A DNA stretch of 64,000 nt. Origin: Octopus vulgaris. Lineage: Eukaryota. Position 1 is the stretch's first letter, and the number at the start of each line of letters is the position of its first letter. A model generated the notes under the pieces. That model was given only the letters and a program-made list of their open reading frames with translations. It was not told the DNA's origin and did no database searches. The translations under genes and the position numbers were made by a program. Below are positions 13,255-63,734 of the stretch, piece by piece. Location of the stretch: contig OX597835.1 of NCBI GenBank assembly GCA_951406725.2, positions 30,690,001-30,754,000 on the forward strand. Direction: 5' to 3'.

Positions 13255-13460
13255 ACAGTAAACAAAAGACGAAGATAGGTGAGGGAAGAACAAGCAGGTT
13301 TATTAGTTTCACGCTTGGGAAGAATGGAAAAGTCTTTGACGTCTCGAGCCTACGTCCTTTGACAGAAAAGGTTGTGAAGAAAAAAATAGAGATGGAACTG
13401 AAATAAAATACAGAGAGAAAAAAAAACGGCGTGGGGATAAGCGATTCAACATGATAAAAT
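13255..13460 (-). mobile_element. (TA)n-anchored short element with decayed minimal hammerhead (family H)
   Basis: The minus strand reads CTTTTCTGTCAAAGGACGTAGGCTCGAGACGTCAAAG (13334-13370), homologous to the 14455, 47432 and 53530 copies. It is flanked by (TA)n. Confidence 0.7.
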
Positions 13461-14414: not shown

Positions 14415-14581
14415 CACTACACACATTTTTTCTCTCCTTGTTTTATCTGTGTTCATTTCTGAAAAAGAGCGTAGGCTCGAAATGTAAAAGAGTTACTCTA
14501 TTCCTGAGCGTTATACTAATACATCTGTTTGCTTCATACACCATCTGTCTTTGTCTTTTGTTTTTGTCGTAAACTCTCCTC
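14415..14581 (+). mobile_element. Family H element with hammerhead-like motif
   Basis: TTTCTGAAAAAGAGCGTAGGCTCGAAATGTAAAAG at 14456-14490. The 3' end runs into (TA)n. Confidence 0.72.
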
Positions 14582-14597
14582 ATATATATATATATAT

Positions 14598-20307: not shown

Positions 20308-20371
<64 letters not shown>

Positions 20372-20469
20372 CGTTTTGGGATTTGGTTTGCAAGATTATT
20401 TATATGAGTTCGTGTGTTATAAGGCACAAAAAGAAAATGACTATCCCCAGAGAAAACAGTATATATATA

Positions 20470-20685
20470 TTCAAAATGTGACTTAGTGTGTATCGTTGGC
20501 GGGTTATTTTCTTCCGTCTTCGCTTCCTTGGATCTTTCCTTTTCCTATGGTTCTGATTAAGAGCCATGCTCGAAACGTTAAATCCTCCTTTCTATCCTTT
20601 CCTGAGCGTCTAATAACACTATAATTGTTCCACGTCCTCGCGTTGTTGTGTTTTCTCTTTGTGTTTTCATGTTTAGATTAAATTT
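20470..20685 (+). mobile_element. Family H-related element (distinct subfamily) with hammerhead-like motif
   Basis: GGTT-CTGATTAA-GAGC CAT GCTC-GAAACGTT-AAATCC at 20549-20585, with downstream CCTGAGCGT. It ends in (TA)n. Confidence 0.65.
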
Positions 20686-27676: not shown

Positions 27677-28142
27677 TAGTTGTTATTGCATAATCCATGT
27701 TTATCCGTCTTCGAGTTGTCTTATAGCAAATATCCGTTGTTATAGAATCCCAGGTCAGTCTCCTATCTATTATCCGTACAACACAAAAATTGTTATGGTT
27801 CTGTAACTCCATGTCAGAAGATATTTATCTGGCCTTACGGCAGGGCAGTTGCTATATAACACCAGGTCAACCGTAGCCCAGTTGTCCTATATTACAAAGA
27901 GTTATTATAGTTGTTACTGCATAATCCATGTTTATCCGTCTTCGAGTTGTCTTATATCAAATATCAGTTGTTTTAGAATCCCAAGTCAGTCTCATGTCCA
28001 TTATCCGTACAAAACAAAAATTGTTATGGTTATGTAACTCCAGGTCAGAAGATATTCATCCGGCCTTATGGCAGGGCAGTTGCTATATAACATCAGGTCA
28101 ACCGTAACTCAGTTGTCCTATATTACAGAGAGTTATTATAGT
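27677..28142. repeat. Tandem duplication of a complex 231-bp unit (2 copies)
   Basis: TAGTTGTTA(T/C)TGCATAATCCATG starts at 27677 and 27908. The boundary TAGT recurs at 28139, and the copies are colinear with substitutions. Confidence 0.92.
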
Positions 28143-29559: not shown

Positions 29560-30452
29560 TACAGCAGTCTGGAATTTTGTCAGGAAATTTTAAGTGACTG
29601 GTTCTACCGATCGATCTGGACGTGGCCAAAAAAGATGTGTGCGACCCCTCAGCTTCTGAAAAGTTCCAGAGAAAAAATACGGTGAGATCCTTGTCCCTCC
29701 ACCAGAAAACTGGTTACTACTGTAAAGATAAGTCGAAAATCGGTGTATCGAATGCTGAGCAGGACCTCAGGATCCAGGCCTACATGGTGATCCGCCGTCA
29801 TGAGCTAACGCTAGTATATAAAGCCATGAGACTGAAGAGTACTCGCCCTCTCCTGCGTCAGATTGCTGAAGACATGCTACTCAACCTGGTGTTCACTGAT
29901 AAAAAGAAATTGGACAGTGAACAAACAGTAAACCACCAGAATGACCGACTTAGGAGTGTATCTGGCTCCGTCGAGGGTAGACTCGTAAATCGACTTCAAA
30001 ATACACATTCAGTTATGGTTTGGGCGGCTGTGACAACCCCTTGAAGGTCTCACCTCGTTTTTGTGACCTCGGGTATTAAAATAAACATTCAACAATACAT
30101 TAACGACATTCTGGAAGTTGAAATGCTTCCATAGGCGAATGAGTACATTCAAGGCTAAACCTGGGTCCTCCAACAGGACTCGGCACCATCCCACATCCAA
30201 AAAGACACATCACTGGATTGAGAAAAACATTTCGTCGTTGATAGGCACAGGTGTATGGCCCTCAAAATCTCCCGATCTCAAACCGTTGAACTTTTTCTGA
30301 GGGTCTTGACCACTGCTCATGTTTCGCTCGATGCTCTAAAGGCAAAACTGCACAAGGAATGTGCTTTGATTCTGTAAGAACAGCTGCGTGTTGCATGTGA
30401 AGCATTCGCACCTTAACGCTGTGATTGGAAACAGATGCGGTCATATCGAATA
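29560..30452 (+). pseudogene. DD37D transposase pseudogene
   Basis: Motifs read VFTDKK..NHQNDR..SVMVWAAVT, then LVFV..GIKIN..YI.DILE, QQDSAPSH (frameshift) and KKT..W...WPSKSPDLKPLN. There are 37 residues between the second D and the final D/N position, plus stops and frameshifts. Confidence 0.88.
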
Positions 30453-46680: not shown

Positions 46681-47206
46681 ACTTTATTTATAATATAATT
46701 TTATTATTTTTTTCTTTTTGTTAACCCTGGGACTCCTAAAGGCAGGTTTCCTCGTTCTCAACGCATAGAAGTTACCTCAGTAACTTCTATGCATTCTTTC
46801 TGCGCTACGGGTCACCGGCCAGTTACAAGACTCAACACCAACAATTCTGATGGAAGAGTACAAGGCCATGACATCAACCTCTGTACTTGACTGGTACTTC
46901 ATTTTATCAACTCTGAAGTAATGAAGGACAAGGTTCGCTTCAACAGGAGTTGAATTCAGAACGTGAAGTGTCGGGAGAAATAGAATAAGAATGTTGACCA
47001 ATGTGGCTGACCATGGGTATTCTCCAAACGACTCGACCTAAGGTTAAACAACAGCATTAACTATAGCAACAACAATAATAACAACAACGGAACCAATCCT
47101 GTACATAGGAATTGTGTTTTTCTACGGTTTCTGTTAGTCTGTGGATTTAGTATATATTCATATGTTTATTTACTACTAGTTTTTTTGAAATATATATATG
47201 TATATA

Positions 47207-47271
<65 letters not shown>

Positions 47272-47289
47272 TATATATACACGCACGCA

Positions 47290-47556
47290 CCCTTCGTTTT
47301 GGGATCACCACTACTTTATTATCTCACATTCTCCCTAGTTTTCCTTGTGACCTTTCTGTCCAGAATTCGCCATGATAGATCGCTAGCCACTACACATTCT
47401 TTATTTTCTCTCCTTGTTTCTTTCTGTGTTCCTTTCTGTGGAAGAGCGTAGGCTCGAAACGTTAAAGACATTTTCACTTCCCGAGCGTTATACAAATACA
47501 TATTTCTGTTGTCTACACCACCTGTTTTCGTTTTTTGTTGTTTTGTAAATTCTCCC

Positions 47557-47558
<2 letters not shown>
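47290..47558 (+). mobile_element. Family H element with minimal hammerhead variant
   Basis: CTTT-CTGTGGAA-GAGC GTAG GCTC-GAAA-CG-TT-AAAG at 47432-47467. The 3' end joins (TA)n. Confidence 0.78.
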
Positions 47559-47637
<79 letters not shown>

Positions 47638-53460: not shown

Positions 53461-53657
53461 GAAATCGCCAAGACAGATCGCTTGCCAGTACACATTCTTT
53501 ATTTTCTCTCCTTGTTTCTTTCTATGTTGCTTTCTGTGGAAGAGCGTAGGCTCGAAACGTTAAAGACGTTTTCACTTCTCGAGCGTTAAACTAATACATC
53601 TGTTTGTTGTCTACACCACCTGTCATCGCCTTTTGTCTTTTTGTGAATTCTCTCCCT
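53461..53657 (+). mobile_element. Family H element with minimal hammerhead variant
   Basis: The motif at 53530-53565 is identical to 47432-47467. The element ends in a TA-rich tract. Confidence 0.78.
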
Positions 53658-62605: not shown

Positions 62606-62910
62606 TTTATATGAAAGCTCAAAACTTATTTTGCTGGGTATGATGGAAAGTGTCAGCTGTCGACAGCTAGCACACTAAGGTGGTACTTATTTATTGATCA
62701 TGCTTCAAGAACCTTGCGAAGAATTCTTGCAGTTCCAAGCAATGCTGATTTTTGTAGGTCTTCTATCTTCACACTTGCACCGATCTTTCTCAGCCATGCT
62801 GTTAGTTCAGTGCTGATAGTTCCAAGAGAACCAATTACTGTTGGTATCACGTCTACTCTCCTCATTGACCGCAACCTTCGTATTTCCCACTTTAAATCGT
62901 CGTAGTTGTT
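62604..62910 (-). pseudogene. R4/Dong-type LINE 3' end with (AAT)n tail
   Basis: It translates YDDLKWEIRRLRSMRRVDVIPTVIGSLGTIS...LQKSALLGTARILRKVLEA* (stop at 62698). A short 3' UTR follows, then (AAT)n on the sense strand. Confidence 0.88.
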
Positions 62911-63734
62911 TTTTTTGGGTTTTTTTTCTTCGTACACATTGAGTCTTTTGTCATCATCACCATCATCATCATCATTATCGTCGTCGTTGTTGTTGTTGTT
63001 GTTATTCTTAATATTATTAGGGCGGCGCCTTGGTTGACTGTTTAGCACTCTGTACAAAATGCTTAGCAGCATCCAGACCGTCTTGCATTCTGGTTTGACA
63101 TTTCATCGAGGTCGACGTTCCCTTTCACCCCTTCGAGGTCGATCAAATAAGTGCCAGTTTAGACGGGGCCATCGGCAATCGACTTGCCGTCTCACCCAAA
63201 ATTTCAGGCCTTGTGCCTGTCGTAGAACGAATTACTACCTGAGTAAAAGAGTGCGGCGCAGATCTCTGGTTGTTGAACCAAGTATCGTAAGGTCGTGGTT
63301 TGGTTTCCTGGAGCGGGTAGCGCATTATGCTCTTAAGCAAAACGCTTAGTTTCACGTTGAACCTATCCACTCGGTTGTAAACGAGTACTATTTAAATAGT
63401 TCAGCTCTGCCAATCTAGGGACCATTCTTGGTGTTTTGTCGTCATCTAAAGAAAGATGAAAGAGGATCGTGACGTGTTTCCAGCATAGTATGCAAAGAGC
63501 TGGGAATGGGACAATTGGGCGTAGCTGTTTGGACGCTGGTGATTTGGTACGGCAGATTGGATATTTAGCTTGTTTTGACAACAGTACGTTTTGGTGGGCA
63601 CACGCACTCACCCACATACACGTACATACATACACAAACAAACACACACATACACACACACACATAGAGACTCATACATGCACATTAACATAAACACTCT
63701 CTTCAGAGACTTAGAGAGAAGTATGTTCACATAA

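What the first reader, a model, noticed from the sequence alone, without database searches (positions are those of the whole stretch)
47290..47558. (TA)n-anchored short element family carrying a variant minimal hammerhead (5 copies in 64 kb)
Seen: related ~170-270-bp elements at 13255(-), 14415, 20470, 47290 and 53461. They have variable 5' ends but a common 3' end fused to (TA)n. The motif is CTTT-CTGNNNAA-GAGC-loop-GCTC-GAAA-CG-TH-AAAG. Two copies share the identical core CTGTGGAA (A6U plus an extra A after A9), and a third also has U6, so the deviation looks inherited rather than random decay. Known: minimal hammerheads with palindromic stem III mark the terminal repeats of Penelope-like elements. 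Inference: this is a high-copy, ribozyme-processed, (TA)n-targeting non-autonomous retroposon with a non-canonical catalytic core.
Basis: partly seen in the sequence, partly recalled or inferred. Interest (0 to 1): 0.72.

Follow-up and report, generated by a model that had tools for sequence, protein, structure and literature searches.

The report
Penelope retrotransposon ends with altered hammerhead
These short repeats are the end pieces of a very abundant, still-intact Penelope-like jumping gene that inserts into TA repeats; its self-cutting RNA motif carries one changed core letter across the whole lineage and likely cuts slowly or rarely, because the genomic copies run straight through the predicted cut site.

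Summary
The five copies are real. They are 3' pseudo-LTR (pLTR) ends of Neptune-type Penelope-like elements (PLEs). Full-length relatives (pLTR, ~950-aa RT/GIY-YIG ORF, pLTR; pLTRs up to 99.8% alike) exist in the same genome. Four copies belong to family A and one (20470) to a sister family B. The extra A after A9, (TA)n targeting and scattered single motifs are already described for PLEs.

The unusual part is A6U. It is in 15,730 of 16,332 exact matches and in the youngest intact elements. It persisted through four or more subfamilies while N7 changed, and dominates in four sequencing runs carrying four organism labels. 'Ribozyme-processed' is not supported: 0 of 86 copies start at the cut site. 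Instead 5' ends pile up ~95-110 nt upstream at an initiator-like motif, in both families.

Best reading: most short copies are cDNAs of the uncut 5' leader RNA, primed by (TA)n at an internal UA patch, and the hammerhead is damped. Cleavage and RNA ends are untested. The scan noted the A6U core before on other DNA.

The parts
47291..47558 (+). 3' end (pLTR piece) of a Neptune-type PLE, family A, G7 subfamily; reaches ~75 nt upstream of the putative start site
   Evidence: 89-90% to L093, L021 over ~270 nt; L093 continues upstream into a broken RT-thumb/GIY-YIG ORF 74-77% identical to the intact protein
47363..47374 (+). Position of the family's 5'-end pile-up, putative initiator/TSS (about 47365; motif partly decayed in this copy)
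   Evidence: TSS role is inferred
47432..47467 (+). Minimal type I hammerhead: stem I CUUU/AAAG, core C3-U4-G5-U6-G7-G8-A9 plus extra A, stem II GAGC/GCUC, GAAA, palindromic ACGU, predicted cut after U17 at 47463; U6 at 47439
   Evidence: sequence
47559..47601 (.). (TA)n target at the 3' junction; another TA run lies at 47190-47279 on the 5' side
53465..53657 (+). Family A, G7 copy starting at the pile-up site; U6 core at 53534-53540, predicted cut 53561
14415..14582 (+). Family A, A7-subfamily copy with decayed core (CTGAAAA)
   Evidence: ~90% to L190, L135
13253..13440 (-). Old, decayed family A copy with U6
   Evidence: 77-81% to L098, L194, L094
20469..20685 (+). Family B copy (3-nt loop II) starting exactly at the A of the TCATTC initiator-like motif; core decayed

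Best explanation
The repeats are 3' pLTR pieces of Neptune-type Penelope-like retrotransposons with intact RT/GIY-YIG copies in the same genome, and most of them likely arise by copying the uncut 5' leader of the element's RNA, whose A6U hammerhead is predicted to cut slowly. Shown: identity with the PLE ends, a fixed 3' end fused to (TA)n, a 5' wall, and U6 fixed across subfamilies. Inferred steps: (1) Transcription starts at an initiator inside the pLTR, about 95-110 nt upstream of the hammerhead cut site. (2) The endonuclease nicks (TA)n, and the nick primes on a short internal UUAUAUAU patch about 100 nt downstream of the hammerhead; this patch occurs twice in the RNA. (3) Priming at the first patch gives ~200-nt copies ending at the RNA 5' end; priming at the second gives longer 5'-truncated or full copies. 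(4) The hammerhead lies between start site and priming site, so fast cutting would sever this template. A6U removes a core contact and favours an off-pairing of the core box with the stem III palindrome, leaving a damped, probably dimer- or protein-dependent ribozyme that is still under selection.
For: Intact elements: 20 loci chosen for long ORFs (680-1200 codons stop to stop); 11 have both pLTRs, unit ~4.5 kb, pLTR pairs up to 99.8% alike. Pfam RVT_1 1.6e-7 and GIY-YIG 0.008, the latter below the cut-off. DKG, YIDD, C-x4-CxxC and YIGQT motifs are present. All 20 end in (TA)4+. In 9 of 9 tandem junctions the element carries only a short TA patch. (TA)n lies at the 3' end in 76 of 86 copies and at the 5' end in 44 of 86, against backgrounds of 17% and 11%. 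5' ends: 43 of 55 copies at risk end between -80 and -121 (0.032 per nt, against 0.0007-0.009 elsewhere), and 0 of 86 lie within -3..+9 of the cut site. In family B, 24 of 34 start 0-25 nt downstream of the initiator-like A, 3 exactly on it, and 2 reach further. Position 6: U 15,730, C/G 422, A 180. The hammerhead is 89-94% alike between family A subfamilies whose flanks are 66-88% alike. Stem I covaries C-G (A) versus G-C (B). ORF trees show a ladder G7, A7, C7, U7 with U6 kept. The G5:C15.2 off-pair probability is 0.17-0.91 in U6 groups against 0.00-0.13 in A6 groups. Literature: natural A6C is slow (PMC3088659, PMC7151607); the anole PLE uses uncut RNA, internal RT initiation and a protein-assisted hammerhead (PMC11167929); Penelope has an internal promoter in the pLTR (PMC2377424).
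Against: No RNA ends could be mapped, so the TSS is inferred from DNA ends and a short motif. The motif is a strict TCAKTY match in only some subfamilies (A7, part of B); many long B copies have TCTTTC. All 11 upstream pLTRs of ORF-bearing loci (298-1401 bp) extend past the wall, which needs a template jump, read-through or an RNA circle; a circle would imply some cleavage. Cut RNA may simply be a poor RT template, so the missing footprint does not measure the rate. The off-pairing does not explain family B's U4C (probability 0.0). In the anole PLE, RT starts at a non-homologous site, unlike the microhomology proposed here. The base of the tree is unresolved and two long G7 copies carry A6.
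Confidence: 0.62

Rival explanations
1. The hammerhead is catalytically dead. The fold is kept as a binding or promoter element for the PLE protein or polymerase, and U6 was fixed by drift.
For: A6 changes lower activity (PMC3088659); there is no cut-site footprint; stem II is invariant rather than covarying; cleavage is dispensable in vitro for the anole PLE (PMC11167929).
Against: The variable positions are exactly those a hammerhead tolerates (N7, loop II, H17), while G5, G8, A9, G12-A14, A15.1-U16.1 and the palindrome persist through 25-30% flank divergence. H17 was A, U or C in all but 2 of 175 motifs in the two main loop groups.
Confidence: 0.2
2. Solo ~200-nt units keep an internal promoter, are transcribed into the flanking (TA)n and spread in trans as a SINE-like non-autonomous family.
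For: Short copies dominate: 17 family A pieces and no family A ORF in 560 kb of arbitrary stretches. They have a defined 5' wall. Older subfamilies are nearly all short. pLTRs suffice in cis in rotifer PLEs (PMC3846280).
Against: Each short subfamily examined has a colinear long, ORF-linked counterpart (family B: L350, L351). No short-only lineage was identified, though this was not tested by a dedicated phylogeny.
Confidence: 0.2
3. An active U6 ribozyme cuts both pLTRs, the unit RNA circularises, and the circles template partial tandems; short copies come from a separate uncut pool.
For: 11 of 11 upstream pLTRs extend past the wall; this is the model of PMC4209133.
Against: No retrozyme-like tandem arrays (1 close head-to-tail pair among 71 motifs, separated by TA); no copy starts at the cut site; a template jump explains the same structures.
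Confidence: 0.15

Closest known systems
Minimal type I hammerheads in pLTRs of metazoan PLEs (Cervera and de la Pena 2014, PMC4209133)
   Same: Extra nucleotide between 9 and 10.1, G10.1-C11.1, palindromic minimal stem III, U-rich upstream, GUU/GUA sites, thousands of single motifs from truncated PLEs.
   Different: Their consensus is CUGANGAH and their search fixed the boxes. None of the 3 'CUGU' hits in the one readable supplement is a core. Here U6 is fixed in a young, intact family.
Neptune (or Nematis) clade PLEs (PMC8557442, PMC3846280)
   Same: C-terminal GIY-YIG, CX2-5CxxC linker, DKG motif, partial tandem and inverted structure, (TA)n bias.
   Different: Clade placement was not tested by a tree with reference elements. 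A 5' wall of solo pieces at a putative TSS was not found described in the papers read.
Anolis Poseidon PAc (PMC11167929)
   Same: Internal RT initiation downstream of the hammerhead; uncut RNA is the main template; no RNA ends at the cut site.
   Different: Poseidon lacks the linker; its RT start is non-homologous to the target; no core change of this kind was reported in the passages read.
Natural A6C hammerhead of phage Bcep176 (PMC3088659, PMC7151607)
   Same: Natural change at position 6; slow in Mg2+.
   Different: A6C, a single phage sequence; here A6U in more than 15,000 copies.
Non-LTR retrozymes (PMC7229834; bioRxiv 10.64898/2026.07.22.740005)
   Same: Short hammerhead-bearing repeats related to PLE pLTRs.
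   Different: Retrozymes are tandem arrays of cut-to-cut monomers with canonical cores; these are dispersed singles with a fixed pLTR 3' end.

Membership tests
Penelope-like element (EN+) | Single ORF with RT and C-terminal GIY-YIG | tested here: met
   homologues carry PF00078, some PF01541
Penelope-like element (EN+) | Direct pLTRs by partial tandem, variable length; inverted arrangements | tested here: met
   11 of 20 ORF loci with pLTRs of 298-1401 bp; close inverted pairs
Penelope-like element (EN+) | Window copy colinear with an ORF-bearing element | tested here: met
   47290 copy 89% to L093 and L091
Neptune clade | CX2-5CxxC linker between RT and EN, DKG and CCHH motifs | tested here: met
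   C836-x4-CxxC, DKG 376, CISCSLC...EH...H
Neptune clade | RT phylogeny with Neptune rather than Nematis | not tested
Naiad | N-terminal EN, DKA motif, no canonical hammerhead | tested here: not met
   EN is C-terminal, DKG
Minimal type I hammerhead | Stems I and II, GAAA, palindromic stem III, NUH | tested here: met
   stem II pair probability 0.96-0.99; stem I 0.2 (window copy) to 0.9 (young copy); covariation between families A and B
Minimal type I hammerhead | Core CUGANGA | tested here: not met
   U6 in 15,730 of 16,332
Minimal type I hammerhead | Self-cleavage after H17 | not testable with these tools
   only an indirect DNA footprint: 0 of 86
Non-LTR retrozyme | Tandem monomers delimited by cleavage sites | tested here: not met
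   1 close pair among 71 motifs; ends not at the cut site
SINE-like non-autonomous PLE derivative | Short-only lineage replicating independently of ORF-bearing copies | tested here: inconclusive
   defined 5' wall, but long counterparts exist

The most novel reading that the evidence does not exclude
Successful PLE lineages evolve to throttle their own hammerhead. Two sister families in one genome independently fixed damping core changes (A6U; U4C) while keeping the rest of the ribozyme. A6U creates an off-state helix that sequesters the dimerisation palindrome and tightens along the subfamily ladder, so that cutting needs a trigger (ORF protein, dimer or another metal ion). Meanwhile the uncut leader is copied from an internal priming site to the cap, seeding roughly 100,000 promoter-bearing 200-bp inserts.
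Probability: 0.25. Interest if true: 0.72.

Novelty: new variant of a known kind. Interest (0 to 1): 0.47.

Why it matters
What PLE hammerheads do is an open question. This genome offers a natural series (A6 ancestor, four U6 subfamilies, a U4C sister family), an apparently recently active intact element, and a DNA record of template ends, so the role of cleavage can be tested directly. A functional A6U would widen the natural hammerhead consensus, and descriptors fixed on CUGANGA miss more than 15,000 motifs here. The 5' wall offers a mechanism, other than recombination, for the abundant solo pLTRs of animal genomes.

Tried and rejected
Rfam: only microsatellite noise among the 150 listed rows of 728 and no hammerhead hit on 47380-47540. 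No PLE ORF in the window. Naiad identity rejected. Recombination between pLTRs as the source of solo pieces rejected as the main route: upstream pLTRs are 298-1401 bp, not ~205 bp. The idea that U4C in family B stabilises the same off-helix was rejected. Expression: no RNA holder listed on record as RNA; all runs were contigs, so no RNA ends, splice or circular joints could be read. One search was uninformative for position 6. Luense et al. 2017 on PLE hammerhead variants is not held; I saw only its citation, and it or its supplements may list A6U. Supplement file 1 of PMC4209133 was not searchable. Searches that found no report of A6U in a PLE: (listings only, except the papers named as read).

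Full report
Observation. In the 47290 copy the motif reads stem I CUUU (47432-35), C3-U4-G5-U6-G7-G8-A9, an extra A, stem II GAGC/GCUC with a GUAG loop, GAAA, CG, U16.1, U17 (47463), AAAG. A relaxed descriptor found 12 motifs in the window plus 560 kb of arbitrary stretches and none in the reversed control. The 20470 copy belongs to a sister family B with a 3-nt loop II; the other four are family A. The window lies in G000, a 2.8-Gb genome.

Abundance and core. Exact 27-letter counts for family A: U6 15,730 (G7 alone 1,895), C or G 422, A 180. All four N7 letters are common among U6 matches (first 100 listed). A profile search found 17 family A and 5 family B pieces in 56 arbitrary 10-kb stretches, none with a family A ORF. 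By extrapolation that is about 85,000 and 25,000 copies. Laying four public runs (four studies, four coded organism labels, contigs only) on a natural A6 copy showed U at position 6 in 98.7-99.9% of summed depth, with N7 split among A, C, G and U.

Parent element. Loci that reach further upstream run into an RT-thumb and GIY-YIG ORF. A protein search gave 9,179 candidates, 150 scored, many with long open frames. Of 20 loci fetched for long ORFs, 11 have both pLTRs; the unit is about 4.5 kb, and L114's pLTRs are 99.8% alike and 99% to L115. The protein (about 950 aa from Met) has RVT_1 and a weak GIY-YIG match, DKG, YIDD, a C-x4-CxxC linker and a C-terminal nuclease. Its best database relatives are 44-59% identical and unnamed as to clade. 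These young elements carry CUGUUGA-A, so U6 is in the intact lineage. The 47290 copy is 89% identical to L093 and L091, whose broken ORFs are 74-87% identical to the intact protein. Family B also continues into a GIY-YIG ORF (L350, 54%). By PMC8557442 and PMC3846280 (passages read) the linker marks Neptune or Nematis; the name Neptune-type rests on that motif, not on a tree.

(TA)n. All 20 ORF loci end in (TA)4+. I fetched 96 of the first 100 places listed for an anchor downstream of the ribozyme. After collapsing rows with identical context, 86 remained; this drops some young copies, and one row is cut by a locus edge. (TA)3+ lies at the 3' end of 76 and at the 5' end of 44, against 17% and 11% at random (slightly different window sizes). 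At 9 of 9 tandem junctions the element has only TTATATAT before the body. The long runs are therefore target, and priming on this internal patch is inferred. TA bias of linker-bearing PLEs is known (PMC8557442).

Where copies begin. None of the 86 starts within -3..+9 of the predicted cut; 9 start further 3'. Ends pile up at -80 to -121: 43 of 55 at risk, 0.032 per nt against 0.0007-0.009 elsewhere. Among 41 copies of the three length-unbiased sets that retain the CGCCATG landmark, 24 end within 12 nt upstream of it, and their flanks share no non-repeat sequence. The site is TCAGTC, TCAGAT or GCATTC depending on subfamily, resembling the TCAKTY initiator (consensus recalled). Family B has the same wall: 24 of 34 start 0-25 nt downstream of the A of TCATTC, three exactly on it including the window's 20469 copy, none at -1 to -8, two further 5'. 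A wall with a one-sided smear fits the end of a template. Penelope has an internal promoter in its pLTR (PMC2377424, abstract and passages). The anole PLE initiates RT internally, uses uncut RNA and has a protein-assisted hammerhead (PMC11167929, passages and part 2 of the main text). Against a simple picture, all 11 upstream pLTRs of the ORF loci pass the wall, which needs a template jump, read-through or a circle.

Is the hammerhead under selection? Between family A subfamilies the 36-nt motif is 89-94% alike while flanks are 66-88% alike (one copy each). Stem I covaries between families. Trees of the ORF 3' part give a ladder from G7 through A7 and C7 to U7, with the youngest clade at near-zero branch lengths and U6 kept throughout. 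An older A6 subfamily (L094, L032) lies outside. The base is unresolved, and two long G7 copies picked for A6 may be ancestors or back-mutants. Most other A6 copies match U6 subfamilies elsewhere and look like decay. Folding natural copies shows that U6 lets the core box pair with the ACG of stem III: probability 0.54 versus 0.13 (A7 pair), 0.17 versus 0.00 (G7 pair), and 0.9 in the youngest. This is a prediction only. Natural A6C is slow in Mg2+ and better in Mn2+ (PMC3088659 section 8; PMC7151607 part 1).

Comparison. PMC4209133 (parts 1-2 and one supplement searched) already describes the extra nucleotide, the palindrome, GUU sites and thousands of single motifs from truncated PLEs. Retrozymes (PMC7229834 passages; bioRxiv 10.64898/2026.07.22.740005 part 1) are tandem and cut-delimited, which these are not. 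I found no A6U PLE report in nine searches, but the key variant paper by Luense et al. could not be read (cited in PMC6765202). Two earlier notes of this scan, seen after my analysis, reach the same identification.

Verdict. A real, known kind of element with a new, lineage-wide core variant and an informative 5'-end wall.

Noticed in passing
window 20469-20685; L201-L249, L340-L369: Family B has 12,425 exact matches; about three quarters of the first 100 listed carry CCGACGA (U4C), the rest U4. It has a GIY-YIG-bearing parent.
   Followed up: partly
L250-L339: The youngest subfamily has many long copies (6 of 10 rows beyond -250), while older ones are nearly all short; unexplained (purging or RT differences).
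   Followed up: no
window 47385-47435: A long polypyrimidine tract lies between the putative TSS and the hammerhead; in the A7 subfamily the core reads UAG. It may be a 5'-UTR intron as in Penelope; no splice joint was seen in contigs.
   Followed up: no
window 20371-20465: A different short dispersed repeat, with inverted pieces in L131, L178, L228, sits 5' of the family B copy.
   Followed up: partly
L059 (about 650-800 and 2257-2870 in oriented coordinates): Inverted GIY-YIG fragments with a CxxC linker from an unrelated PLE, possibly Naiad-like.
   Followed up: no
window 27677-28142: Two tandem copies of a 231-bp unit, 92% alike.
   Followed up: no
window 29598-30044 (+) and 62698-63102 (-): Open frames that look like a DDE transposase fragment and the end of a non-LTR ORF (recalled resemblance); Pfam gave no convincing hit.
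   Followed up: partly
L087, L088, L117, L118 (G000 C2:77.13-77.22 Mb): A cluster of four near-intact family A elements within about 80 kb.
   Followed up: no
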